The position numbers and the translations under genes are program-made. Positions 1 to 12,102 of a stretch of DNA of 64,000 nucleotides are shown piece after piece. Every line of letters starts with the position of its first letter. Positions within the stretch are counted from its first letter, which is position 1. Source of the DNA: Spirochaetia bacterium (GTDB taxonomy: Bacteria > Spirochaetota > Spirochaetia > CADAEX01); assembly GCA_963662265.2 (NCBI GenBank), contig CAXXHA010000015.1, forward strand, positions 13,653 through 77,652. The letters are read 5' to 3'. Below the pieces are notes generated by a model. The model ran no database searches. It saw only the letters and a program-made list of their open reading frames with translations, and was not told the origin of the DNA.

Positions 1-907
1 GCTTCATCAGTCTTGCTGTACCATAATCGAGATAATTAATATGAACCGCATTCGGGAGGTAGAAATTAAGCTCTCTCCCCGACTCAACAACCATTTCAAG
101 GAACGGAACAAAAATCGAATCCTTTTTATACAGAAGAGCATCATCATAAAATGCGAAATTGTTCGTATTCCAGTCTCTGCAGTATTCCTCAAGCTGGCTG
201 TATGTATTTTCTGCTGTTCCTGGTCTGAAATCGGAAATAACCGATGATGCGCAGTATCTGCACTTAAGGGGACAACCTGTGTTCAGCCTTAAAACAGCTG
301 ATTCCTCCCACAGGGGAACAGAAAGAAGCTTTTCCACGGGAGGGGTAGAAGGAAAAGGAAGGGAGAGATTTCTGAAAATATCTTCAAGCTGATCAATACT
401 GTCGCCTGTAACAGTATAGTCTGCACCGCTTTTACCCCTGCAGTGCTGAGGAAGCAGAGTTGCGTAAATACCGCCTACAGCAACCGGAACATTGCCCCAG
501 ACTTTCCTGACTGCTGCTATAGCCTCAAAAACACCCTGGTACCAGTAGGTCATTGTTGATGTAACAAACACAATATCGGGTCTTCCGGCATCTCTTACCC
601 TGTTTTCAAGAGACTCAATCTTTATCCCGTATCTGGAGAAACCGCGTCCTGTATCACCCAAAGCAGCGGGAACTTTAACAGGCTGCCTCAGGAATTTACC
701 GGTACCATTCTTTCTCCTTGAAGGTTTTTTCATTGTCTCAAGAGAAAAGGGATCTTTCCAGTCAAGGGAATCGACAAAATCAACGTCCCATCCTGAGTCT
801 TCAAGCCATCTGCCTATCCTGAGAAGGCCGTAAGGCTTGAGAAAAAGGTCAAAAAGCGCAAAATCATAAATCGGCGGTGAAATCAGCAGGGCCCGGGGCT
901 TTTCCAT
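1..907 (-). CDS. B12-binding domain radical SAM protein (partial; runs off the left edge)
   Basis: Manual translation from ATG at 907 gives MEKPRALLISPPIYDFALFDLFLKPYGLLRIG...TSTMTYWYQG...VGGIYATL...TGCPLKCRYCAS (CxxxCxxC)...FAFYDDAL. Absent from the ORF track because the stop lies outside the window. Confidence 0.85.
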   Translation of the reverse strand, partial: MEKPRALLISPPIYDFALFDLFLKPYGLLRIGRWLEDSGWDVDFVDSLDWKDPFSLETMKKPSRRKNGTGKFLRQPVKVPAALGDTGRGFSRYGIKIESLENRVRDAGRPDIVFVTSTMTYWYQGVFEAIAAVRKVWGNVPVAVGGIYATLLPQHCRGKSGADYTVTGDSIDQLEDIFRNLSLPFPSTPPVEKLLSVPLWEESAVLRLNTGCPLKCRYCASSVISDFRPGTAENTYSQLEEYCRDWNTNNFAFYDDALLYKKDSIFVPFLEMVVESGRELNFYLPNAVHINYLDYGTARLMK

Positions 908-2260: not shown

Positions 2261-2698
2261 ATGAATGTTGGATTTTATCTGGAAAAAAAGAAAGGGAATG
2301 AAGTTTTTTCAATCAACCTGAACAAGACAGTGTCTGACGGTATAAAACAACTCAACGAAAAAAAAGTTGGAGCCCTCATAGTAACAGATGACAACGGCAG
2401 TATTCAGGGAATTATTTCAGAACGGGATATTCTCAGAAACGGCTGCAGCTGCGAGGGATCAGTAAAAAAGATTTCAGAGATCATGACACCGAAGTCTAAA
2501 CTTGTTACAGCAGATAAAGATGAAAATATTGCTGATATAATAAAAAAACTTGATGAAAATAAAATCAGGCATCTTCCGGTTATGGATGGTGAAAAGGTAA
2601 TAGGAGTTGTTTCAATTACAGATGTTTTAAATGAACTGAGACAGCTGGATCTTTTTGAAAATGAACAGCTGAAAAACTATATTCTCTCTCCATATTAA
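2261..2698 (+). CDS. Stand-alone CBS-pair protein (paralog 1)
   Basis: VGALIV...GIISERDIL and IRHLPVMD...GVVSITDV; RBS AAGGAG; 145 aa. Confidence 0.9.
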   Translation: MNVGFYLEKKKGNEVFSINLNKTVSDGIKQLNEKKVGALIVTDDNGSIQGIISERDILRNGCSCEGSVKKISEIMTPKSKLVTADKDENIADIIKKLDENKIRHLPVMDGEKVIGVVSITDVLNELRQLDLFENEQLKNYILSPY

Positions 2699-2769: not shown

Positions 2770-2864
2770 ATCGATAGAAAATTATACTTCATATTCTGAT
2801 GACAGCTGTTTCAAGGACTTCTGCGTTCTCCGGGGATGGAACAACCAAACCCGATATAAATGCC

Positions 2865-3434
2865 TCAGCTGTTTGCTTCCATGTATCTTTCATACCATGT
2901 GTGGGCAACAATGCTTACTGCATTTATAAATTCACCTCTCCCAAGAAGGGCTCTAGCCTCTTCAACAGGAACAAGCACCGGATCAATAATTTCATGTTCA
3001 TCAAGGTCCTGTTTTTCTGAAAGAACAGGATTTACAGCAAGAAATGTATGGCAGTCATTATTCATGAAAGCGGGATCAGGATTTGCTTTTCCGAGAAAAA
3101 CAAACTCATCTGCCCGGTACCCGGTTTCCTCAAGAAGTTCCCTTTCTGCGGCAGCAGCAGGGTTTTCCCCCGGATCAACCAGCCCTGCAGGGAATTCCAT
3201 GGTTATGGATGAACTTCCATGCCTGAACTGCCTCACCATAAGAAAACAATCCCTGTTATTTTCATCTTTCGTTACTGCTATAACATTTACCCAGTCGGGC
3301 GAATCAAGCATTACAAAAGATCCTTTTTTACCGTCAGGTGAAATTCTGTCAACTTCAACTGCTTTAAAAATTCTGAAATCCCGGACATCTTTTCTGCCGG
3401 TTTCATACCATTCAAGGTCCTGATCATTCTTCAT
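2865..3434 (-). CDS. NUDIX hydrolase (ADP-ribose pyrophosphatase-like)
   Basis: VRQFRH...EFPAGLVDPGENPAAAAERELLEETGY Nudix box. Confidence 0.9.
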   Translation of the reverse strand: MKNDQDLEWYETGRKDVRDFRIFKAVEVDRISPDGKKGSFVMLDSPDWVNVIAVTKDENNRDCFLMVRQFRHGSSSITMEFPAGLVDPGENPAAAAERELLEETGYRADEFVFLGKANPDPAFMNNDCHTFLAVNPVLSEKQDLDEHEIIDPVLVPVEEARALLGRGEFINAVSIVAHTWYERYMEANS

Positions 3435-3631
3435 AAATTAATTATATCAGCATTAAATAGTTATTTCTATATCTTTTTAAGCTCTCTTAAAAATAGTTCA
3501 AACTTAATATTTTAGACATAAACAAGTATAAATTCAATACCAAAAATATTCGAAAAAATATTTTTTTATTGATTTATGGGTTATGCAGTATTAAAATAAA
3601 AAATGATTTTAATTTTAATAAGGAGATACAA

Positions 3632-4069
3632 ATGAACGTCGGCACTTATTTGGAAAAGAAAAAAGGTCATGAAGTTTATTCGATTAATCAAAATCAGACA
3701 ATCATTGAATGTGTTGATTTGCTTAATGAAAAAAAAGTCGGTTCACTGGTTGTTACTGATGACAGCGGTAACATACAGGGAATAGTATCTGAAAGGGATA
3801 TCTTAAGAAAAGGATTCTGCGATAAACCAGAAAAAAAGAAAGTCAGCGAAATCATGACAGGAAAGGAGAAACTGATTACAGCTCCAAAAGAAGCAAACAT
3901 AGCAGATGTCATGAAAAAACTTGACGAAAACAAAATAAGACACCTTCCGGTAATGAATGGTGATAAAGTTCTTGGAGTTGTTTCCATCACCGATGTCATT
4001 AACGAACTGAGAGCTATCAGAGTTTTTGAGAATGAACAGCTTAAAAACTACATTCTTTCTCCATATTAA
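3632..4069 (+). CDS. Stand-alone CBS-pair protein (paralog 2)
   Basis: Start reassigned to ATG 3632 after AAGGAG; 145 aa; colinear with 2261..2698, about 70% identical by manual alignment. Confidence 0.9.
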   Translation: MNVGTYLEKKKGHEVYSINQNQTIIECVDLLNEKKVGSLVVTDDSGNIQGIVSERDILRKGFCDKPEKKKVSEIMTGKEKLITAPKEANIADVMKKLDENKIRHLPVMNGDKVLGVVSITDVINELRAIRVFENEQLKNYILSPY

Positions 4070-4231
4070 ATAATATTCAGGAATACAATCCTGATTAAAT
4101 TATTTTTTTTTACATTTATATAATTATTTTTTTATTTTATTTAATTTTTAATTCATCTACAGCCTTACAAAAAACCTCAACAGAACATGATGTATATCAT
4201 GAGCAAATATTTTTTTAAAGGAGGTATTTTT

Positions 4232-4762
4232 GTGAATCAACTTAAGGCTTCTCACTTCAATGAGCAAAAATGCAGTGATATTATTACCAAGTACCGGGAA
4301 AAACCTGGTGATTTACTTACAATTCTGGAAGAAGTTCAGAAAATCACCCCTCACAGTTACCTGCCGGAAAAAACACTTCAGTACATAGCTGAAAACATGG
4401 ATGTGCCTCTGTCTAGAATCTATTCAGTAGTCACTTTTTATTCATTCTTCAACCTGAAACCTCAGGGCGACCATACAATTACAGTCTGCCGCGGAACAGC
4501 CTGTCATACAAGAGGATCAAAATCACTTCTTGACGATCTGCTGATTCAGCTTGATATAAGAGACCTGGAAGATGAAGGAGAAGTATCCTTCACAACATCA
4601 GATAACAAATTCACAGTAAGAACAGTTGCCTGCTTCGGTCAATGCGCCTTAGCTCCTGTTATAGCAATTGACGGAGTTATTTACAGTAATGTTACATCGG
4701 AAATGCTGTCTGAACTGCTGAAAAAACTGACAACAAAAAAGAAAAAAAAGCAGGAGAAATAG
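4232..4762 (+). CDS. hydC: [FeFe]-hydrogenase NuoE-like [2Fe-2S] subunit
   Basis: VCRGTAC...VACFGQCALAP; VVTFYSFF; GTG start after GGAGG. Confidence 0.9.
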   Translation: MNQLKASHFNEQKCSDIITKYREKPGDLLTILEEVQKITPHSYLPEKTLQYIAENMDVPLSRIYSVVTFYSFFNLKPQGDHTITVCRGTACHTRGSKSLLDDLLIQLDIRDLEDEGEVSFTTSDNKFTVRTVACFGQCALAPVIAIDGVIYSNVTSEMLSELLKKLTTKKKKKQEK

Positions 4763-7700
4763 ATGGCAGACACACCTCAGACTATTAGTAGTTTAATAAC
4801 AAAGGGTAAGGAACTGATACTTGATTCAAAACCCTATATAGCAGTTGGTATGGGAACCTGCGGAGTGGGAAACGGCGCAGATGTCCTGTATGAAACATTT
4901 GAAAAAAAGATAAAAGACAAAAAACTCAACATTGGCCTGAAGAAGACAGGATGTATGGGTTTGTGCGCAGAAGAACCTTTTGTAAATATCTTTGTACCCG
5001 GTAAACCTGTACTTGTTCTTAATAAAGTTGATAAAAAATCAGCAGGTAAAATCATTGATGCGATTGCAAAAGGGGGAGCACCGGAAAAACTTGCTCTCTG
5101 TAAAATATCAGAATGGGACCATATAACAGGCAAAATTGAATATGGTGAAGGTTATAATGCAGTTCCTGAATGGAATGAAATTTCATTCTTTAAAAACCAG
5201 ACAAAAATAATACTCAGGGATGCGGGAATTCTGAATCCTGAGTCTATTGAAGAATATGCAGCTGTCGGCGGGTATTCAGCTTATATCGATGCTATTACAG
5301 AAAAAACACCTGACAGCATTATTGAAGAAATCAAAGAATCAGGTCTCAGAGGCCGGGGCGGCGCAGGCTTCCCGACAGGCATCAAATGGGGACTGATGAA
5401 AAAAGAGAAAGGAGAGAAAAAATACATTATATGCAACGCCGATGAAGGAGACCCCGGTGCATATATGAACAGAAATGAAATTGAGAGTGATCCTCACATG
5501 CTTCTGGAAGGGATGATGATCGGAGCCTATGCAATGGAAGCAACTGACGGAATTATTTACTGCAGAGCTGAGTATCCGCTTGCTGTTGAAAGACTCAAGA
5601 AAGCTATAGCAGATGCAGAAGCAGCCGGCCTTCTCGGTAATAATATACTGGGAACAGGCTTTTCATTTAATATAACTATAGTAGAGGGTGCGGGAGCATT
5701 TGTTTGCGGCGAGGAAACAGCTCTTATATCTTCCACAGAAGGAAAAGCAGGCCGACCAAGGCAAAGGCCGCCTTTCCCAGCACAGTTCGGTGTTCACGGA
5801 TACCCGACAAATATCAATAACGTTGAAACCCTCTGCAATATTCCTGTAATTATTTCAAGGGGAAGTAAATGGTTCAGAAAAACCGGCACGGAAAAGAGTC
5901 CCGGTACAAAAGTTTTCTCTCTGGTCGGTAAAGTAAAAAACACAGGTCTTGTGGAAATGGCGCTTGGTTCCCCTATTACAACTATTGTCTATGAAATAGG
6001 CGGCGGTGCCAGCGGAGATGAAAAGAAAATAAAAGCAATCCAGACAGGAGGACCGTCAGGCGGATGTATACCTTCCAACCTGTTTGAAACAACTGTAGAT
6101 TATGAATCTCTTGCAAAGCTTGGTGCAATAATGGGATCAGGCGGTATGGTTGTAATGGACCAGGACAACTGTATGGTGGATGTTGCAAAGTATTTCCTTG
6201 AATTCACAAATTCGGAAAGCTGCGGAAAGTGTACACCATGCCGTGAAGGACTTGCACAGGAACTTCACCTCTTAAGGAAAATAACAAACGGACAGGGAGA
6301 TGAGAGTGACCTTGAAGCACTGGCGGATATAGGAAACACAGTCATGGACACAGCTCTCTGCGGACTGGGACAGACAGCGCCTAATCCAATCCTTACAACT
6401 CTTAAATATTTCAAAAATGAATATGAAGAACATATTCACAATCAGCACTGCCAGGGCGGTACATGCGAAGCTCTTTTTGATGCTCTGTGTTCAAATTCCT
6501 GTCCAATGCACATGAATATCCCGGCATACCTCACACTTCTCAAGGAAGACAGACTTGAGGAAGCTTTTGAATCAACACTCAGAGACAATCCCCTTCCGGG
6601 AACAATCGGAAGGATCTGCCACTTCCACTGCCAGATGAGGTGCAGAAGGGAGACTATTGACGAATCAGTACAGCAGGGTGAAATACACAGATACCTTGCA
6701 GATACAATGTATAAAATGGGAAGAGAGAAAGCGATATATCAGTCACTTATCGACGAAAAACTTCCCGATACCGGCAAGAAGATTGCAATAATCGGAGCCG
6801 GACCTGCAGGTCTTGCTGCAGCATTCTACCTTGTAAGACTGGGTCATAAAGTAACTATCTATGATTCACATTCTGCCGCTGGTGGAGTTCTTAAATACGG
6901 TATACCAGCATACAGACTGCCAAAGGAGATCCTTGAAAAAGAACTGGAACTCTTCAAAATGCTTGGAGTCAAATTCGTTTTCAATACTGTTTACGGAAAA
7001 GATATTACTAGCAAAAAAATACTCAATGATTACGATGCTCTTTTTGTTTCCATAGGTTCATATAACCATGTTGAAATGAATATAAACGGAAACGAGCTTA
7101 AAGGGGTAATTCAGGGGACTGACCTCCTTGAACAGCTTGAAGAAAAGAAAATGGTGCCGATGGGTAAAAAAGTTACAATAATCGGAGGCGGAAATGTTGC
7201 AATAGATGCGGCAAGGACACTCTGGAGAATAGGTGTGGATGTAACTGTTGTCTACAGACGTGAAAAAGAAGATATGCCTGCAAACAAGCTTGAAATCAAG
7301 GAAGCTATTGAGGAAGGGGTAAAATTCATGTTTATGGCAGCGCCGCTTAGAATTGTAGGCGACAGCAGAAATGAAGTTGAAGCTCTTGAAGTAATGCAGA
7401 TGGAAGGAGGCTCTTTCGATATATCAGGAAGAAGACGGCCAGTTGAAACCGGTAAATCCTTCATGATTCCATGTGATACTGTTGTAATAGCTATCGGAGA
7501 AAGAGCAGACGGAGGACTTCTTGAAAGGGAAGGAATTGTCACAAACAAAAACGGAACAGCATGTATCAATCCGTATACATTCCAGACAAGCAACCCCGCA
7601 GTTTACGCAGCTGGTGATGTGGTAACCGGTCCTTCAACTGCAGCTGAAGCAATGGGTATGGCAAAGGATGCTGCCGAATCAATCGACCTTGCATTGATGG

Positions 7701-7930
7701 GAGAAAAGAGATTCCACAAACTGATGAAGGAATTCGTCTTTGAGGACACACCTCCTGAAGATCTCACAGCAAAACCGAAAATTGCAGGCCGTCACCTGCC
7801 GGTTGAACAAAGAAAAGGAAATTTCCAGGAAATTAATTTCGGATTCATGGGAGACCAGGCAAGACAGGAGGCTATGAGGTGCCTCAGATGCGATATAAGA
7901 ATAGGCTGCAGCAAAGGAGGTGAAAAATGA
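4763..7930 (+). CDS. hydB: [FeFe]-hydrogenase NuoF-like flavin subunit fused to a C-terminal GltD/NfnB-like FAD/NADPH oxidoreductase
   Basis: SGLRGRGGAGFPTG, NADEGDPGAYMNR, GAFVCGEETAL, GGPSGG and SCGKCTPCREG, then CSNSCP...GRICHFHCQMRC, IGAGPAGL, GGGNVAIDAAR...VYRR, AAGDVVTGP and a terminal RCLRCD. Confidence 0.9.
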   Translation: MADTPQTISSLITKGKELILDSKPYIAVGMGTCGVGNGADVLYETFEKKIKDKKLNIGLKKTGCMGLCAEEPFVNIFVPGKPVLVLNKVDKKSAGKIIDAIAKGGAPEKLALCKISEWDHITGKIEYGEGYNAVPEWNEISFFKNQTKIILRDAGILNPESIEEYAAVGGYSAYIDAITEKTPDSIIEEIKESGLRGRGGAGFPTGIKWGLMKKEKGEKKYIICNADEGDPGAYMNRNEIESDPHMLLEGMMIGAYAMEATDGIIYCRAEYPLAVERLKKAIADAEAAGLLGNNILGTGFSFNITIVEGAGAFVCGEETALISSTEGKAGRPRQRPPFPAQFGVHGYPTNINNVETLCNIPVIISRGSKWFRKTGTEKSPGTKVFSLVGKVKNTGLVEMALGSPITTIVYEIGGGASGDEKKIKAIQTGGPSGGCIPSNLFETTVDYESLAKLGAIMGSGGMVVMDQDNCMVDVAKYFLEFTNSESCGKCTPCREGLAQELHLLRKITNGQGDESDLEALADIGNTVMDTALCGLGQTAPNPILTTLKYFKNEYEEHIHNQHCQGGTCEALFDALCSNSCPMHMNIPAYLTLLKEDRLEEAFESTLRDNPLPGTIGRICHFHCQMRCRRETIDESVQQGEIHRYLADTMYKMGREKAIYQSLIDEKLPDTGKKIAIIGAGPAGLAAAFYLVRLGHKVTIYDSHSAAGGVLKYGIPAYRLPKEILEKELELFKMLGVKFVFNTVYGKDITSKKILNDYDALFVSIGSYNHVEMNINGNELKGVIQGTDLLEQLEEKKMVPMGKKVTIIGGGNVAIDAARTLWRIGVDVTVVYRREKEDMPANKLEIKEAIEEGVKFMFMAAPLRIVGDSRNEVEALEVMQMEGGSFDISGRRRPVETGKSFMIPCDTVVIAIGERADGGLLEREGIVTNKNGTACINPYTFQTSNPAVYAAGDVVTGPSTAAEAMGMAKDAAESIDLALMGEKRFHKLMKEFVFEDTPPEDLTAKPKIAGRHLPVEQRKGNFQEINFGFMGDQARQEAMRCLRCDIRIGCSKGGEK

Positions 7931-9699
7931 GCACTGAAATGGTCAAAATAACGATAAATAACAATACCTATGAAGTAGCTGCCGGCACAACTATTCTTGA
8001 TGCCTGCAGAACTGCAGGAATTAAAGTACCTTCTCTGTGTTACATGGAAGATGTTGCCCATAATGCTTCATGCGGTATTTGCTGTGTTGAAGTAAAAGGA
8101 GCAAGAACTCTTGTAAGATCCTGTATACACAAGGTTTACGCAGGCATGGAAGTACTTACAAATTCAAAAAGAGCGCAGAAAGCAAGAAAGACAAACCTGG
8201 AACTGCTTCTCGCAAACCACCCGGATGACTGCCTTAACTGCGATAGAAACAACAACTGTGAACTTCAGTCACTTGCTTTTGACCTTGGGGTCAGAGAAAA
8301 TATCTACGCAAGAACAAAGAAGAAAATTCTGCCGCTTGATGTTTCTTCCCCATCCTTAATCAGGGATCCAAACAAATGTATACTCTGCAGAAGATGCGTG
8401 GATGTATGTGATCAGGTACAGGGTGTTAATGCAATCGACGTTACAGGAAGAGGACTAAACAGCAAAGTCACAACATTCATGGACAAGGGACTCGGCAATG
8501 TAGCATGCGTTAACTGCGGTCAGTGCGCAGTAGTATGTCCTACTGGAGCTATTGTTGAAAAATCATCAGTAGATGAAATCTGGGAAGATATTAACAACCC
8601 GGAAATAATAACACTTATTCAGACAGCACCTGCAATAAGGGTTGGAATAGGCGAAGCAATGGGAATGGGTTTCGGAGCCCTTGTTACGGGACAGATGGTT
8701 GCAGGATTAAGAAGACTGGGATTTGACAAAGTCTTTGATACACAGTTTACAGCCGACCTCACAATAATGGAGGAAGGGCATGAACTTATAAAGAGAGTTA
8801 CAGAAAAGGGGACCCTTCCGATGATAACATCCTGTTCACCGGGATGGATAAAATTCATTGAGCATTTTTATCCGGAACAGCTGCCGCATCTCTCAACCTG
8901 TAAATCACCTCAGCAGATGTTCGGTGCAGTTGCAAAGACATATTATGCGGAAAAAGCAGGAATTGATCCTGAAAAAATCAGGGTTGTATCTGTAATGCCG
9001 TGTACTGCAAAGAAATACGAAGCCGGAAGGCCGGAAATGTCATCGGCTCACACATACTGGAAGGAAAAAAAGAAACTTAAGGATAAAACAGTATTTGCAG
9101 ATGTAGACTATGCAATAACAACAAGAGAACTTGCAAGAATGTTCAAGGAGGCCGGTGTTGATTTTGCCTCCCTTCCGAATGAAGATTTTGACAATCCTCT
9201 GGGAGAATCAACAGGAGCAGCTGTAATCTTTGCTGCCACAGGAGGTGTTATGGAAGCAGCCTTAAGAACAGCTTACGAGGTGATATCCGGAAAAACCCTT
9301 GAAAATGTCGAGTTCCATGCTGTAAGAGGGATGGAAGGAATCAAGGAAGCTGAAGTTGATATTGACGGACTTGTAGTAAAAGTAGCTGTTGCCCACACAC
9401 TGAGCAATGCAAGAATACTTCTTGAGCAGATAAAGGATGGGACTTCACCTTATGCATTCATCGAAGTGATGGCCTGTCCGGGAGGATGTCTCGGAGGCGG
9501 CGGCCAGCCTATACCTACAACCTGGGAAATCAGGAAAAAACGTGCAGAATCAATATATCAGGAAGATATCAATCTGGGGACAAGGAAATCCCACGAAAAT
9601 CCTGATATTGCAATGATTTATGAAGAATTTCTCAAGGAACCGCTTGGACATCATTCACACCAGCTGCTTCACACCCATTATACAGAAAGGGTTCTATAA
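7927..9699 (+). CDS. hydA: [FeFe]-hydrogenase catalytic subunit (group A, M3 architecture)
   Basis: H-cluster motifs TSCSPGW, MPCTAKKYE and EVMACPGGCLGGGGQP; N-terminal [2Fe-2S], His-ligated HPDDCLNC and two CxxCxxCxxxC clusters. Confidence 0.95.
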   Translation: MSTEMVKITINNNTYEVAAGTTILDACRTAGIKVPSLCYMEDVAHNASCGICCVEVKGARTLVRSCIHKVYAGMEVLTNSKRAQKARKTNLELLLANHPDDCLNCDRNNNCELQSLAFDLGVRENIYARTKKKILPLDVSSPSLIRDPNKCILCRRCVDVCDQVQGVNAIDVTGRGLNSKVTTFMDKGLGNVACVNCGQCAVVCPTGAIVEKSSVDEIWEDINNPEIITLIQTAPAIRVGIGEAMGMGFGALVTGQMVAGLRRLGFDKVFDTQFTADLTIMEEGHELIKRVTEKGTLPMITSCSPGWIKFIEHFYPEQLPHLSTCKSPQQMFGAVAKTYYAEKAGIDPEKIRVVSVMPCTAKKYEAGRPEMSSAHTYWKEKKKLKDKTVFADVDYAITTRELARMFKEAGVDFASLPNEDFDNPLGESTGAAVIFAATGGVMEAALRTAYEVISGKTLENVEFHAVRGMEGIKEAEVDIDGLVVKVAVAHTLSNARILLEQIKDGTSPYAFIEVMACPGGCLGGGGQPIPTTWEIRKKRAESIYQEDINLGTRKSHENPDIAMIYEEFLKEPLGHHSHQLLHTHYTERVL

Positions 9700-9771: not shown

Positions 9772-9803
9772 TGAACTGCCCCTTTCCAGGGGCAGTTCTT
9801 TTT
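9772..9803 (+). terminator. Terminator of the hyd operon
   Basis: GAACTGCCCCT-TTCC-AGGGGCAGTTC followed by Ts. Confidence 0.8.
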
Positions 9804-9888
9804 TGAAAAAACATATAAATGATGTGTGTTCTTAATAACATATTTTTATCTTTGTTAAATCATTAAATTAAATTATACTTAAGGCCAT

Positions 9889-12102
9889 ATGGAACTGTTT
9901 TCTTTATCTCAGAACAGCGAATCAACTCCGTTGGCCGCAAGGATGCGCCCTGAAACTCTTGATGATTTTATAGGGCAGGAACATATAGTCGGAAAAGGAA
10001 GACTCTTAAGAAGAGCAATACAGGCTGACCAGCTCTCATCAGTAATATTTTACGGCCCTCCCGGAACTGGTAAAACAACACTTGCAAGAATTATTGCAAA
10101 CACGACAAAAAGCTCGTTTATCACTATCAATGCAGTACTCTCTGGTGTCAAGGAAATCAGGGAAGCGATTATTGCAGCCAAGAAGAAACTGGAACTTTAT
10201 CAGCAGAAGACTATTCTGTTTGTAGATGAAGTCCACAGATGGAACAAGGCACAGCAGGACGCTCTTCTTCCATGGGTGGAAAACGGTACATTCATACTGA
10301 TCGGGGCAACAACAGAGAATCCTTTCTTTGAAGTTAACTCAGCACTTGTAAGCCGGAGCAGGATATTTCAGCTGCTCCCTCTTTCAGAAGCGGAACTTCT
10401 GAAAGCAGCTAAAATGACACTGGAAGACAGGGAAAGAGGATACGGTAAATATAACATAGAATTTGAAGAAGGCGCCCTTGAACACATAGCAGAAATTGCC
10501 AACGGCGATGCAAGAAGCCTTCTCAATGCACTAGAACTTTCAGTAGAAACAACACCTGAAAAATTCCCCCCCCCTGAGGGAGAAAAAATATTCATATCAA
10601 TAGAGACTGCCGAAGAAAGCATACAGAAAAAAGCAGTTCTTTATGACAAGGAGGGGGATTACCACTACGACACAATAAGTGCGTTTATAAAATCAATAAG
10701 AGGATCAGATCCTGATGCGGCGCTGTACTGGATGGCAAGAATGATTGACGCGGGGGAAGATCCCAAATTTCTATTCAGGAGGATGCTGATCTCTGCAGCT
10801 GAAGATATCGGGATGGCTGATCCCAACGCTCTTCCTTTGGTAAATTCCGCAGCACAGGCATTTGAAAGAATTGGAATGCCTGAGGGGAATTTCTTCCTGT
10901 CTCAGGCAGCTATCTATCTTGCAACTGCCAAAAAATCAAATACAACTCTTGCTTTCTTTGATGCTCTTCAGTCAGTGAGAAACGAGAAAAACGGGGAAGT
11001 TCCCGATGACCTGAAAGATGCTTCACGCGACAAGCACAGTTTCGGACACGGGCAGGGGTACCTCTATCCACATGCATACAAAGACCACTGGGTTGCCCAG
11101 CAGTACCTTCCCGACACCCTGAAAGGACGGGTATTTTACCAGCCTGGTGAAACAGGTTATGAAAAAGAGATAAAATCAGATATTGAAAGAAAAAGAGAAG
11201 TCCAGCTTGAAGCCCATCTTGAGCGGGGAGATGACAGCCAGATTCTCACTTTCACCCCTCCGGATAAAAGAAAGGATGAATGGCTAAAAAGAACAGCAGA
11301 TAACAGAAACCTGATACTGACATCAATAAGAGACAGGATTTTCAGAAAAAGCCTGATAAACAGGCACGGAAGAGTGCTTGTTGCGGGAAAAGACAGGGGG
11401 CTCCTCCTGTGGGAGGCACTCAGAAAAGCACCTGAGGGGGGCGTATGGACAGTAATCAGCGATAAGGAGGAGGTAGACTTCATAAACAGCTACCCCACCC
11501 CTCTACCGGATATGGAAAAACCAATTATAATTCCAGGAAGTATAGAAACACTTTCTACTGATGACAGCAACATTGTCCCCTTTGATACAATAGTAGGAAG
11601 AAATATCATCAGAACAGGTTCCGATGCGGAATATATATTCAGAAGCATTTATTCTCTTCTCGACAGAAACGGAATGTTCTCAATTGCAGATGTACTCCCT
11701 TCAAGAGCAACAAGGCTTTCCGAACTGATAAATACAAAATCTCTTACAGGGGAAGATGCAGAAACTATCAGAACAGCTGAAAACACGATTTATGAAAAAA
11801 ACAGGAAACATGGCCTTCTTGAAAGCAATGATGTTTTTAAAATGCTGGAAAAGACCGGTTTTTCAGAAACAGGGCTCAAGGAAAAGGAATATACAGAAAA
11901 CAGAATCATAACATCAAAAAATATAGAACGGTGGCTCGACCTGGAAGATACAGGCAGTTACGGTTCACAAATAAAAAAACTTATTCCGGAAGAATTATAC
12001 AGCAGGATTGCAGATATATTTTATCATGAACTTGCAGACAGGGAAGTAAAATGGAGAACAGTCTACCTCTTTCTTTGGGGTTTTAAAAAGATGAGTTCTT
12101 GA
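9889..12102 (+). CDS. rarA: Replication-associated recombination protein A (MgsA/RarA) with a C-terminal extension
   Basis: PLAARMRP, GPPGTGKTT, FVDEVHRWNKAQQDALLP, ATTENP, SAFIKSIRGSDPDAALYW; about 280 extra C-terminal residues. Confidence 0.9.
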   Translation: MELFSLSQNSESTPLAARMRPETLDDFIGQEHIVGKGRLLRRAIQADQLSSVIFYGPPGTGKTTLARIIANTTKSSFITINAVLSGVKEIREAIIAAKKKLELYQQKTILFVDEVHRWNKAQQDALLPWVENGTFILIGATTENPFFEVNSALVSRSRIFQLLPLSEAELLKAAKMTLEDRERGYGKYNIEFEEGALEHIAEIANGDARSLLNALELSVETTPEKFPPPEGEKIFISIETAEESIQKKAVLYDKEGDYHYDTISAFIKSIRGSDPDAALYWMARMIDAGEDPKFLFRRMLISAAEDIGMADPNALPLVNSAAQAFERIGMPEGNFFLSQAAIYLATAKKSNTTLAFFDALQSVRNEKNGEVPDDLKDASRDKHSFGHGQGYLYPHAYKDHWVAQQYLPDTLKGRVFYQPGETGYEKEIKSDIERKREVQLEAHLERGDDSQILTFTPPDKRKDEWLKRTADNRNLILTSIRDRIFRKSLINRHGRVLVAGKDRGLLLWEALRKAPEGGVWTVISDKEEVDFINSYPTPLPDMEKPIIIPGSIETLSTDDSNIVPFDTIVGRNIIRTGSDAEYIFRSIYSLLDRNGMFSIADVLPSRATRLSELINTKSLTGEDAETIRTAENTIYEKNRKHGLLESNDVFKMLEKTGFSETGLKEKEYTENRIITSKNIERWLDLEDTGSYGSQIKKLIPEELYSRIADIFYHELADREVKWRTVYLFLWGFKKMSS

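What the first reader, a model, noticed from the sequence alone, without database searches (positions are those of the whole stretch)
4232..9699. Trimeric [FeFe]-hydrogenase whose HydB ferredoxin domain is replaced by a GltD/NfnB NADPH module
Seen: the 1055-aa HydB keeps ADEGDPGAYM, RPPFP, GGPSGG and the H...C...C site (EEHIHNQHCQGGTC). Where canonical HydB has a C-terminal 2[4Fe-4S] domain, it continues into a complete GltD-like FAD domain with GGGNVAID...VYRR. Its first cluster ligands (RCLRCD) appear to be permuted to the C-terminus. Known: the A..M, F and GGPSG residues are published markers of bifurcating HydABC; the C-terminal clusters are the ferredoxin exit route; YRR marks NADPH preference. 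In Stn/NfnABC-type enzymes the GltD domain sits in the NuoG-like subunit, not in NuoF. Inference: an H2/NADH/NADPH three-way enzyme (ferredoxin-independent bifurcation or H2-linked transhydrogenation) with two nicotinamide sites on one chain.
Basis: partly seen in the sequence, partly recalled or inferred. Interest (0 to 1): 0.8.

Follow-up and report, generated by a model that had tools for sequence, protein, structure and literature searches.

The report
Hydrogenase with built-in NADPH module
This three-gene iron-iron hydrogenase carries an NADPH-binding flavin module where its relatives have the part that passes electrons to ferredoxin, so it probably links hydrogen gas to both NADH and NADPH, and nobody appears to have tested such an enzyme.

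Summary
hydC (4232-4762), a 1055-aa hydB (4763-7930) and hydA (7927-9699) form one operon. HydB keeps the bifurcating-type NuoF core and the 3Cys+1His zinc-hinge motif. In place of the C-terminal 2x[4Fe-4S] ferredoxin-like domain it has a complete GltD/NfnB-like module with two [4Fe-4S] sites, FAD and a GxGxxA/RR NADP(H) site.

The fusion is not an artefact. 79 of 80 related genome loci have both halves in one ORF, flanked by hydC and hydA, across four named phyla. All cofactor ligands checked are invariant in 65 of 65 sequences. Contigs from three studies bridge the junction without indels.

The C-terminal "RCLRCD" permutation is real, but Stn/NfnABC-type modules share it. A confident AlphaFold model places the module's Fe-S part where the ferredoxin-like domain sits in solved BfuB structures.

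Best reading, inferred and not shown: NADP(H) replaces ferredoxin at the end of the low-potential branch, giving an H2/NAD(H)/NADP(H) enzyme. Whether the reactions are coupled, and whether ferredoxin is truly dispensable, remains open.

A 2018 genome paper noted the architecture in passing. I found no biochemical study. It is a new variant of a known kind.

The parts
4219..4226 (+). Shine-Dalgarno-like AAAGGAGG ahead of the hydC start
   Evidence: Read directly. The GTG at 4232 follows after 5 nt.
4232..4762 (+). hydC (BfuC/NuoE-like), thioredoxin-like [2Fe-2S] subunit (C1 cluster). The ORF is open from the ATG at 4187, but the GTG at 4232 is the likelier start.
   Evidence: Pfam PF01257, 1.2e-42, residues 31-181 of the 191-aa ORF. 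A hydC gene lies upstream of the fusion in 65 of 79 related loci. 13 of the 14 misses are at contig edges.
4763..7930 (+). hydB*, a 1055-aa NuoF-GltD fusion. The start abuts the hydC stop, and the stop overlaps the hydA start by 4 nt.
   Evidence: AlphaFold model mean pLDDT 94.5, pTM 0.89.
4763..5167 (+). HydB* N-terminal thioredoxin-like domain (the site called B5 in the Bfu papers) with Cys33, Cys64, Cys68 and Cys113
   Evidence: Aligns to the N-terminal domains of BfuB chains. C33, C64 and C68 are present in 65 of 65 sequences. C113 is Cys in 47 and Ala in 18. Metal content was not determined.
5210..6442 (+). NuoF core: FMN/NAD(P)H site, SLBB domain and the [4Fe-4S] cluster next to FMN (Cys487, 490, 493, 533)
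   Evidence: Pfam PF01512, PF10531, PF10589. TIGR01959 486 bits. RGRGGAGF, A233, M235, GGPSG and the four Cys are present in 65 of 65. F338 is F in 41 and Y in 24.
6431..6466 (+). Hinge motif H557-x5-C563-x4-C568. Together with C470 it gives the 3Cys+1His set of the Zn hinge.
   Evidence: All four residues are present in 65 of 65. A Zn site with three Cys and one His is described for T. maritima HydB (passages) and StnB. Assigning C470 as the fourth ligand is my inference.
6488..6718 (+). Fe-S subdomain of the GltD-like module (Fer4_20): C576, C580, C619, C623, C627 and H642
   Evidence: Pfam PF14691, 5.1e-21. All six residues are present in 65 of 65. H642 aligns with StnC K170 and the NfnL Glu, the non-Cys ligand of the FAD-proximal cluster. 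In the model this part is placed where the BfuB ferredoxin-like domain lies.
6779..7663 (+). FAD and NADP(H) Rossmann domains: GAGPAG 678-683, R718, GGGNVA 808-813, R832-R833
   Evidence: Pfam PF07992, 8.7e-41, profile 2-291 of 291. The motifs are present in 65 of 65 and R718 in 64 of 65. The best solved relatives are NADPH-binding modules: NfnA 9n5u_A, StnC 8oh5_C, NfnI-L 5jca_L.
7796..7894 (+). Permuted C-terminal segment ending in R-C1040-L-R-C1043-D, which supplies two ligands of the FAD-distal [4Fe-4S] cluster
   Evidence: Aligns to residues 14-54 at the N-terminus of NfnI-L and to StnC about 520-568. C1040 and C1043 are present in 65 of 65. Fer4_20 profile positions 2-34 hit the ORF end in two relatives.
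7927..9699 (+). hydA, a 590-aa [FeFe]-hydrogenase catalytic subunit: [2Fe-2S], His-ligated [4Fe-4S], 2x[4Fe-4S] and the H-cluster domain
   Evidence: Pfam PF13510, PF10588, PF22117, PF02906 (2.5e-97), PF02256. NF040763 is above its cut-off. Best solved relatives are T. kivui and A. woodii HydA1. It lies downstream of the fusion in 74 of 79 loci, and the 5 misses are at contig ends.
9773..9805 (+). Terminator-like hairpin (11-bp stem, 7 GC pairs) followed by a T run, closing the operon

Best explanation
hydC-hydB*-hydA encodes a soluble trimeric [FeFe]-hydrogenase of the HydABC/Bfu type. In this enzyme the ferredoxin-like B3/B4 domain has been replaced in place by a Stn/NfnA-type, circularly permuted GltD module with two [4Fe-4S] clusters, FAD and an NADP(H) site. 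In solved Bfu enzymes the B3/B4 domain ends the low-potential branch and docks ferredoxin. I propose that NADP(H) takes ferredoxin's role as the third substrate. H2 electrons enter through HydA's clusters to the [4Fe-4S] cluster next to FMN. NAD(H) reacts at FMN. The second branch runs from FMN via HydC's mobile [2Fe-2S] domain to the two GltD-module clusters and FAD, where NADP(H) reacts. The net reaction would be 2 H2 + NAD+ + NADP+ = NADH + NADPH + 2 H+, reversible and energetically coupled. In fermenters it would run towards H2. Shown here: the architecture, full ligand conservation, conserved synteny and the modelled position of the module. Inferred: the electron path, the coupling, ferredoxin independence and the direction in vivo.
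For: Replacement rather than addition is shown against the genome's own canonical HydB. The alignment places fusion ALCSNSCP on the last two Cys of the first ferredoxin motif. All ligands and nucleotide motifs checked are present in 65 of 65 family sequences: the hinge residues, five module Cys plus two tail Cys, H642, GxGxxG, GxGxxA and RR. The published bifurcation markers A233, M235 and GGPSG are present in 65 of 65. The AlphaFold model is confident (pLDDT 94.5, pTM 0.89). In single rigid superpositions, BfuB chains with a resolved ferredoxin-like domain align up to model residues 638-640. Examples are 9n5u_B (model 22..640, chain 3..593, 557 aligned, rmsd 1.9, Z 55.3), 9bp5_B and 8oh5_B. 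The published Bfu model puts C1, then B3/B4, then ferredoxin on the low-potential path (passages). The hydC-hydB*-hydA order holds wherever contigs allow. In 2 of 5 complete genomes checked, this operon's HydA is the only [FeFe]-hydrogenase domain. My arithmetic uses the physiological potentials quoted by Schut 2022. NADH+NADPH could sustain about 145 Pa H2, against about 3 Pa for NADH alone.
Against: There is no biochemical datum of any kind. The energetic gap between NADPH and NADH is small compared with ferredoxin, so the selective value of tight coupling is unclear. NADH+ferredoxin would allow about 15 kPa H2. The Phe marker of bifurcating HydB is Tyr, the non-bifurcating state in Losey's scheme, in 24 of 65 members. 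The fourth Cys of the N-terminal site is Ala in 18 of 65. The tool gives only first and last aligned residues and no coordinates, so I could measure no cluster-to-cluster distance. AlphaFold domain placement may also be biased. The nucleotide preference of the FMN site was not determined, and a passage on T. kivui HydABC speaks of NADP affinity. The window's genome also has a canonical HydABC, an Stn-type NfnABC and PFOR, so ferredoxin is available to it.
Confidence: 0.4

Rival explanations
1. Uncoupled dual-nucleotide hydrogenase. Both the FMN site and the FAD site exchange electrons with the H-cluster independently, so the enzyme simply evolves or consumes H2 with either NADH or NADPH. It would also show an H2-independent NADPH:NAD+ transhydrogenase side activity, without energetic coupling.
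For: The two nucleotide potentials are close, so no bifurcation is thermodynamically required. Tyr replaces the Phe bifurcation marker in 24 of 65 members. The N-terminal site is not fully conserved, with C113 being Ala in 18 of 65. Non-bifurcating NADH-dependent HydAB(C) enzymes exist (Losey 2020).
Against: A233, M235, GGPSG, the Zn-hinge ligands and HydC are all retained in 65 of 65. Losey's non-bifurcating enzymes lack such features. The NuoF core clade sits inside the radiation of BfuB proteins with a ferredoxin-like domain.
Confidence: 0.25
2. Hyd-Nfn hybrid that still uses ferredoxin. The module's two clusters keep the B3/B4 role and still dock ferredoxin, as the equivalent clusters do in NfnAB. 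The FAD/NADPH site adds a fourth substrate, and the FAD could even be a bifurcating NfnB-type flavin.
For: In NfnAB the two [4Fe-4S] clusters of the homologous subunit lead to ferredoxin (Stn paper introduction). The module keeps NfnB-like 'NIP' at 585-587, where StnC has Cys114, and keeps R718, the counterpart of NfnB R201. The model puts these clusters where ferredoxin-facing B3/B4 lie. PFOR is present in the window's genome and in the two genomes where this is the only [FeFe]-hydrogenase.
Against: The non-Cys ligand is His, not the Glu of bifurcating NfnB (65 of 65). R718 is also conserved in non-bifurcating StnC, so it does not discriminate. In NfnAB the high-potential partner is a [2Fe-2S] cluster in NfnA; no counterpart beside this module's FAD could be identified here. 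The bulky FAD domains now occupy the end of the chain.
Confidence: 0.25
3. The GltD-like module is not a catalytic nucleotide site in this context. It would act instead as a redox sensor or regulator, an oligomerisation domain, or a reductase for another acceptor, as in the sulfide-dehydrogenase or Fe(III)-reductase activities reported for homologues.
For: Homologues (SudA, SfrB, NsoC) were first described through other activities (Kremp 2020 passage). The curated NCBIfam models for GltD/NfnB-type proteins all score below their cut-offs.
Against: Every FAD, NADP(H) and cluster motif is invariant over four named phyla. The closest solved relatives are working NADPH modules.
Confidence: 0.07
4. 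The fusion is an assembly or frameshift artefact, or a decaying gene.
For: One related locus (L045) has the NuoF part split into two ORFs.
Against: 79 of 80 loci have both halves in one ORF. More than 120 full-length proteins of about 1045-1060 aa were listed. Contigs from three studies cross the junction with no indels. The model is confident throughout.
Confidence: 0.01

Closest known systems
Electron-bifurcating [FeFe]-hydrogenase HydABC (T. maritima, A. woodii, T. kivui; FeFe-Bfu)
   Same: It has three genes for NuoE-like, NuoF-like and HydA subunits. The N-terminal HydB domain, FMN/NADH motifs, the [4Fe-4S] cluster next to FMN and the 3Cys+1His hinge are present, as are the A-x-M, F and GGPSG markers. 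HydA is most like T. kivui and A. woodii HydA1, including the TSCSPGW motif of A. woodii.
   Different: The C-terminal 2x[4Fe-4S] ferredoxin-like domain of HydB is absent and replaced by a GltD-like FAD/NADP(H) module. A passage in Furlan 2022 says that domain's Cys ligands are conserved in all characterised bifurcating [FeFe]-hydrogenases. Gene order is hydC-hydB-hydA with hydA last.
StnABC / NfnABC (Nfn-Bfu) electron-bifurcating transhydrogenase (S. ovata, C. saccharolyticus, T. sibiricus)
   Same: It has a BfuB/BfuC-type core plus a GltD-like NADPH module with the same circular permutation, the RCLxC motif following the FAD domains. These are the best solved matches for both halves: 9n5u_B, 9bov_B and 8oh5_B, and 9n5u_A, 9bov_A and 8oh5_C.
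   Different: In Stn/Nfn the module is inserted in the NuoG-like subunit. It feeds the mid-potential chain towards the FMN-proximal cluster, and the B subunit keeps its ferredoxin-like domain. Here the module is on the NuoF-like subunit at the ferredoxin-domain position, and the NuoG-like subunit is a true hydrogenase. The ligand position that is strictly Lys in StnC is His in 65 of 65. StnC Cys114 corresponds to Ile586.
NfnAB / NfnSL (NfnB, NfnL) and glutamate synthase small subunit GltD
   Same: It has two [4Fe-4S] clusters, FAD and NADPH Rossmann folds. It scores 304 bits to P. furiosus NfnI-L, 285 to T. maritima NfnB and 197 to GltD.
   Different: The order is not permuted in NfnB/GltD. 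The proximal-cluster ligand is Glu in NfnB. There is no NfnA partner here. The NCBIfam GltD/gltA models score below their cut-offs.
Enlarged HydB with a GltD domain in Vallitalea guaymasensis L81 (genome paper, Microorganisms 2018, PMC6163223)
   Same: [quoted passage not shown]
   Different: It is only a genome annotation remark in a Firmicute, and the authors linked it to glutamate metabolism. I could not fetch that sequence, so I do not know whether it belongs to the window's clade or to the separate P0125-type lineage.
Non-bifurcating NADH-dependent HydAB(C) (Syntrophus aciditrophicus, Syntrophomonas wolfei)
   Same: It is a ferredoxin-independent hydrogenase built on a NuoF-like subunit.
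   Different: Those enzymes have T/S and K/S/A instead of A-x-M, Tyr instead of Phe, and no GGPSG. The window protein has the bifurcating states at all of these positions.

Membership tests
Group A multimeric [FeFe]-hydrogenase (HydA catalytic subunit) | H-cluster motifs L1 (TSCCPxW-like), L2 (MPCxxKxxE) and L3 (ExMACxxGCxxGGGxP), as listed in PMC6085437 (passage) | tested here: met
   TSCSPGW, MPCTAKKYE and EVMACPGGCLGGGGQP are read. The Ser variant of L1 is identical in A. woodii HydA1. PF02906 scores 2.5e-97. NF040763 scores 873.8 against a cut-off of 765.
Bfu / HydABC family as defined by Schut et al. 2022 | BfuC-type [2Fe-2S] subunit encoded next to BfuB | tested here: met
   PF01257 scores 1.2e-42. 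A hydC gene is upstream in all related loci with sequence available.
Bfu / HydABC family as defined by Schut et al. 2022 | BfuB with FMN/NADH site, the [4Fe-4S] cluster next to FMN and the hinge (Zn or [2Fe-2S]) site | tested here: met
   Motifs and Cys487, 490, 493, 533, and C470, H557, C563, C568 are present in 65 of 65. The model aligns to BfuB chains at Z 45-55.
Bfu / HydABC family as defined by Schut et al. 2022 | BfuB C-terminal ferredoxin-type 2x[4Fe-4S] domain (B3/B4; IPR017896 was one of the four domains used to collect the family) | tested here: not met
   Pfam finds no Fer4-type domain. My regex scan of the fusion chains finds no CxxCxxCxxxCP motif. The alignment to the canonical paralog shows the domain absent. 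Two clusters of a different domain (Fer4_20) are modelled at that place.
Bifurcating versus non-bifurcating HydB (Losey et al. 2020 criteria) | A/E and M at T. maritima positions 232/234, Phe at 367, and GGPSG at 427-431 | tested here: met
   The window has A233, M235, F338 and GGPSG 429-433. In the family, A, M and GGPSG are present in 65 of 65, but position 338 is F in 41 and Y in 24. The criteria were read in full.
Stn / Nfn-Bfu transhydrogenase | GltD-like module inserted in the NuoG-like (A/StnC) subunit, with strictly conserved Lys at the StnC 170 position | tested here: not met
   The module is in the NuoF-like subunit. The NuoG-like subunit is a hydrogenase. The position is His in 65 of 65. 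Lys conservation is taken from the paper passage.
GltD / NfnB family (NADPH-dependent glutamate synthase small subunit-like) | Fer4_20 domain with two [4Fe-4S] sites plus FAD and NADPH Rossmann domains in the canonical order; curated NCBIfam scores | tested here: inconclusive
   All domains and ligands are present, but the first ligand segment is permuted to the C-terminus. TIGR01316 scores 351 against a cut-off of 471.75, TIGR01318 scores 314.3 against 482.95, and PRK12771 scores 449.5 against 516.
NADP(H) specificity of the FAD-side site | GxGxxA second glycine motif (proposed for NADP(H) in Kremp 2020) and a basic pair after the next strand (recalled knowledge, from no call) | tested here: met
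   GGGNVA 808-813 and R832-R833 are present in 65 of 65. Binding itself is not testable with these tools.

The most novel reading that the evidence does not exclude
This would be a natural Bfu-type enzyme that bifurcates or confurcates electrons between H2 and two pyridine nucleotides with no ferredoxin at all. NADP(H) would be bound on the same chain as NAD(H), at the end of the low-potential branch, behind a His-ligated [4Fe-4S] cluster that neither Nfn (Glu) nor Stn (Lys) has. It would let fermenters that send ferredoxin electrons through Rnf still vent NADH as H2 at roughly 50-fold higher H2 pressure than NADH alone allows. It would also give the field a bifurcating hydrogenase in which all three substrates are soluble small molecules.
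Probability: 0.35. Interest if true: 0.85.

Novelty: new variant of a known kind. Interest (0 to 1): 0.65.

Why it matters
The mechanism of Bfu/HydABC bifurcation is still debated: where the low-potential branch runs, how HydC's mobile cluster gates it, and where ferredoxin docks (passages). Here nature has swapped the ferredoxin-facing domain for a nicotinamide site while keeping every other conserved element checked.

If the enzyme is coupled, it would be a ferredoxin-free test system for that branch. It would also show that bifurcation can work across the small NADPH/NADH gap. If it is uncoupled, it would define which retained features are not sufficient for bifurcation.

The enzyme is common. 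The scan found 265 species genomes, which is a lower bound, in Spirochaetota, Bacteroidota, Ignavibacteriota and Kryptoniota. In some genomes it is the only [FeFe]-hydrogenase.

Current schemes would misfile it. Schut's family was collected through a domain this protein lacks. HydDB looks at the gene downstream of hydA, which here is a RarA-like gene. H2 budgets inferred from metagenomes for these groups may therefore assume the wrong redox partners.

Tried and rejected
Earlier findings of this scan could not be read (closed). Cluster members and names for P0125, P0124, P0006, P0129 and P0127 could not be fetched (switched off). I therefore cannot say which organisms carry the separate P0125-type fusion, or whether the Vallitalea protein is one of them.

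No RNA holder was listed for the operon, so this says nothing about expression.

I ran seven full-text searches. I also ran term look-ups in PMC6405883, PMC6085437, PMC9431212, PMC8924675, PMC11406978, PMC12918512 and PMC4478896. None found a mention of a NuoF-GltD HydB apart from the Vallitalea paper. The library lacks most subscription journals, and I opened no supplements. Schut 2022's supplementary tables may list such proteins.

I looked for a way to measure cluster distances in the model, but the tools return no coordinates. The placement argument therefore rests on aligned ranges only. T. maritima HydB rows stop at model residue 570-577, so they neither support nor contradict the placement.

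Distant NuoF-like-GltD proteins of about 1030-1130 aa (P0132, P0143, P0147, P0148, P0149, P0184, P0203) were first taken as family members. I then set them aside because their FMN and cluster motifs are degenerate and they branch basally.

I considered a complex prediction of HydC with HydB* and did not run it. A pass would only reflect likeness to solved HydBC pairs.

The promoter scan gave no more sites than shuffles did (18 against a mean of 15.6), so no promoter is claimed.

Full report
**Observation**

The window holds three tightly packed genes on the + strand.
- A NuoE/HydC-like ORF is open from 4187, with the likely start at GTG 4232, 5 nt after AAAGGAGG.
- A 1055-aa ORF runs 4763-7930 and starts right after the hydC stop.
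- A 590-aa ORF runs 7927-9699 and overlaps the previous stop by 4 nt.
- An 11-bp GC-rich hairpin with a T run follows at 9773-9805.

Pfam reads the middle protein as Complex1_51K (190-361), SLBB (385-434), NADH_4Fe-4S (473-557), Fer4_20 (565-652) and Pyr_redox_2 (673-967, whole profile). It finds no ferredoxin-type Fer4 domain.

The last gene is a complete [FeFe]-hydrogenase catalytic subunit. PF02906 scores 2.5e-97 and NCBIfam NF040763 scores 873.8 bits against a cut-off of 765.

**Anatomy of HydB***

The N-terminal half (residues 25-574) matches solved BfuB/HydB chains at E 1e-158 to 2e-183. It keeps the following features.
- A thioredoxin-like N-terminal domain with Cys33, 64, 68 and 113.
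- The FMN/NADH motifs.
- The four Cys of the [4Fe-4S] cluster next to FMN (487, 490, 493, 533).
- A 3Cys+1His set (C470, H557, C563, C568).

The 3Cys+1His set corresponds to the Zn 'hinge' described for T. maritima HydB (three Cys and one His; passages) and for StnB. Assigning C470 to that site is my inference.

The three published sequence markers that separate bifurcating from non-bifurcating HydB are all in the bifurcating state here. They are A/E-x-M, Phe, and GGPSG (Losey 2020, section read in full).

I aligned the protein with the genome's own canonical HydB paralog. The canonical protein continues after the hinge with CKGCTLCARKCP...CIKCGACADAC, the B3/B4 ferredoxin-like domain. The window protein goes from the hinge Cys568 straight to C576-x3-C580-P and the GltD-like module. 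The ferredoxin-like domain is therefore replaced, not supplemented.

**The module and its permutation**

The C-terminal half is most like the GltD-type modules of Bfu-type transhydrogenases and less like NfnB or GltD.

| Solved chain | Bits |
|---|---|
| T. sibiricus NfnA 9n5u_A | 348 |
| C. saccharolyticus NfnA 9bov_A | 344 |
| S. ovata StnC 8oh5_C | 330 |
| P. furiosus NfnI-L | 304 |
| T. maritima NfnB | 285 |
| GltD | 197 |

The last 45 residues, ending in RCLRCD, align with residues 14-54 at the N-terminus of NfnI-L. They also align with StnC residues up to 568, after its FAD domains. In two relatives, Fer4_20 profile positions 2-34 hit the end of the ORF separately from positions 20-111.

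It is, however, the arrangement already present in Stn/NfnABC modules. Only C1040 and C1043 come from the tail, because C1049 is not conserved.

By analogy with the canonical motif order I infer two cluster sites.
- The distal cluster would use C1040, C1043, C576 and C627.
- The FAD-proximal cluster would use C580, C619, C623 and H642.

H642 aligns with StnC K170 and with the Glu of NfnL. The Stn paper shows this position ligates the proximal cluster. It is strictly Lys in StnC and Glu in NfnB, and it needs a residue with a lone pair (passages). His at this position is a family signature.

GxGxxG (678-683), GxGxxA (808-813) and R832-R833 are present. Kremp 2020 proposes GxGxxA for NADP(H).

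**Structure model**

AlphaFold2 with a 114-row alignment (A2) gave mean pLDDT 94.5 and pTM 0.89.

VIA-align superposes BfuB chains that have a resolved ferredoxin-like domain well past the NuoF core.

| Chain | Model range | Chain range | Aligned | rmsd | Z |
|---|---|---|---|---|---|
| 9n5u_B | 22..640 | 3..593 | 557 | 1.9 | 55.3 |
| 9bp5_B | 24..638 | 1..580 | not noted | not noted | not noted |
| 8oh5_B | 24..639 | 1..580 | not noted | not noted | not noted |
| 9mqx_B | 1..634 | 3..613 | not noted | not noted | not noted |
| 8a6t_B | 1..613 | 4..601 | not noted | not noted | not noted |

A chain without that domain (9bov_B) stops at model residue 572 with 526 aligned. T. maritima rows stop at 570-577.

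The model therefore places the module's Fe-S subdomain where B3/B4 sit. The tool reports only first and last aligned residues, and I had no coordinates. This is supportive evidence, not a distance measurement.

**Not an artefact; distribution**

The word-index search listed more than 120 full-length proteins of about 1016-1063 aa at 59-89% identity, plus one 956-aa partial. Sources named some of them Sphaerochaeta, Paludibacter and Bacteroidota.

A scan of one genome per species, using patterns from the GltD half, found 265 encoding stretches. The best 80 were kept. By record taxonomy they are 47 Spirochaetota, 26 Bacteroidota, 2 Ignavibacteriota, 1 Kryptoniota and 4 unplaced. The closest is a Spirochaetia MAG at 92% identity, so the window is most likely from that group.

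Context in these loci:
- Both halves lie in one ORF in 79 of 80 loci. L073 begins inside the module at a contig end. In L045 the NuoF part is split into two ORFs.
- hydA follows directly in 74 of 79. The 5 misses end at contig ends.
- hydC precedes in 65 of 79 by my distance rule. 13 misses start at contig edges. L045's hydC is present but failed the rule.

In the window protein plus 64 full-length relatives (55-89% identity), every ligand and motif named above is present in 65 of 65. The exceptions are C113 (47 Cys, 18 Ala), F338 (41 Phe, 24 Tyr), R718 (64 of 65) and E318 (64 of 65).

Contigs of four public runs from three studies cover the junction near nt 6470 with no indels. One run may be the source of the window.

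**Origin**

I built a quick FastTree of 126 NuoF cores. The window's clade of 13 sampled fusions is monophyletic (support 100). It sits inside the radiation of BfuB proteins that carry the ferredoxin-like domain.

Three other intact fusions (P0125, P0127, P0129) fall elsewhere. Starred branches force at least two origins. P0125 has Lys at the H642 position.

34 of the 150 listed 50%-identity representatives have a NuoF core followed by a GltD module. Many of these are fragments. A group with degenerate NuoF motifs is basal, and I treat it as a different family.

**Genome context**

The window's genome (90.6% complete) also encodes the following:
- a canonical hydCBA set, with a 630-aa HydB that has the ferredoxin-like domain;
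- a short Stn/NfnABC-type set, whose A subunit has the GltD module inserted in a NuoG-like domain;
- two further NuoF-type genes.

It also has PFOR, two Rnf/Nqr-type loci and glucose-6-phosphate dehydrogenase.

I checked five complete genomes of carriers. In two Bacteroidota chromosomes, the only PF02906 hit is the HydA of this operon. The other three have four or five hits. Those two genomes have PFOR, two NfnB/GltD-like genes and a weak [NiFe]-like hit.

**Mechanism**

In the current Bfu model (T. sibiricus NfnABC paper, passages) electrons move as follows.
- Mid-potential electrons reach FMN through the A-subunit clusters and the FMN-proximal [4Fe-4S] cluster.
- NAD(H) reacts at FMN.
- The low-potential branch goes through the mobile [2Fe-2S] domain of the C subunit to B3/B4.
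- Ferredoxin docks beside B3/B4.

Here everything up to the hinge is conserved. The B3/B4 position is taken by two clusters that lead to FAD and an NADP(H) site. The simplest reading is that NADP(H) replaces ferredoxin as the partner of that branch.

I used the physiological potentials quoted by Schut 2022: NADH about -280 mV, NADPH about -380 mV, ferredoxin about -500 mV. My arithmetic gives these equilibrium H2 pressures.

| Electron donor(s) | Equilibrium H2 |
|---|---|
| NADH alone | about 3 Pa |
| NADH+NADPH | about 145 Pa |
| NADH+ferredoxin | about 15 kPa |

Coupling to NADPH would therefore help NADH-driven H2 formation about 50-fold. This is far less than ferredoxin does.

That could suit organisms that pass ferredoxin electrons through Rnf or Nfn. 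This physiological rationale is speculation. Nothing here shows coupling, direction or ferredoxin independence. The nucleotide preference of the FMN site is also open.

**Rivals**

- An uncoupled NADH/NADPH dual hydrogenase is favoured by the small potential gap and the Tyr338 members.
- A ferredoxin-using Hyd-Nfn hybrid is favoured by the NfnB-like features of the module and by the position of its clusters.
- A non-catalytic module is disfavoured by invariance of all motifs.
- An artefact is excluded.

**Literature**

Schut 2022 collected BfuB sequences through a domain architecture that includes the ferredoxin-type domain. That architecture would exclude these proteins. HydDB classifies group A enzymes by the gene downstream of hydA. 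Here that gene is a RarA-like gene, so such a rule would not see the partner.

I found no biochemical or structural study in seven full-text searches. The library omits most subscription journals, and I read no supplements.

**Verdict**

This is a real, conserved and widespread variant of the HydABC/Bfu hydrogenases that has not been characterised. It fails one defining feature of the family as published, the ferredoxin-type B3/B4 domain, and keeps all the others.

It works most like a cross between HydABC and Stn/NfnABC. I file it as a new variant of a known kind, with interest 0.65.

Noticed in passing
L010:9441-13539 and L016:9437-13538 (minus strand): Two Spirochaetia/Spirochaetales genomes carry a second, divergent hydA (about 670 bits) and a second NuoF-GltD fusion (374 and 318 bits for the two halves). 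They lie head-to-tail on the opposite strand right after the main operon, so paralogous copies of this enzyme type exist.
   Followed up: no
window 7927-9699 (HydA residues about 298-304): The first H-cluster motif reads TSCSPGW, with Ser where the textbook motif TSCCPxW has its second Cys. The same string is in A. woodii HydA1 (7q4v_A), an active bifurcating enzyme.
   Followed up: partly
window 5774-5776 (HydB* residue 338) and related loci: The Phe marker of bifurcating HydB is Tyr in 24 of 65 family members. These are mostly Bacteroidota, Ignavibacteriota and Kryptoniota, plus two Spirochaetota (L022, L026). All other markers stay in the bifurcating state.
   Followed up: partly
window 9889-12102: The RarA/MgsA-type AAA+ protein is 737 aa. 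Its Pfam domains end at residue 434, leaving a C-terminal extension of about 300 aa with no Pfam match at E 0.01 or below.
   Followed up: no
window 2261-2698, 2860-3423 and 3569-4069: Two small CBS-pair proteins and a 187-aa ORF without any Pfam match lie just upstream of the hydrogenase operon on the same strand. I did not check whether they travel with the operon in relatives.
   Followed up: no
G000 contigs C1, C35, C38, C3 (own genome): The genome has four more NuoF-type modules. C1 holds a canonical hydCBA next to another HydA-like gene. C35 holds a short Stn/NfnABC-type set with a 685-aa A subunit. C38 holds a BfuB-like protein that ends before the hinge and lacks one cluster Cys. C3 holds a NuoF-like gene beside a small NuoG-like gene.
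   Followed up: partly
proteins P0132, P0143, P0147, P0148, P0149, P0184, P0203: A distant set of 1030-1130-aa proteins joins a NuoF-like domain to a GltD module. Their FMN and cluster motifs are degenerate. Four of them also have a C-terminal ferredoxin-like extension. Their partners and function were not examined.
   Followed up: no
G001 (genome of L013) and G004 (genome of L018): In these two complete Bacteroidota MAG chromosomes, the HydA of the fusion operon is the only [FeFe]-hydrogenase catalytic domain found. Both also have PFOR and a weak [NiFe]-like hit.
   Followed up: partly
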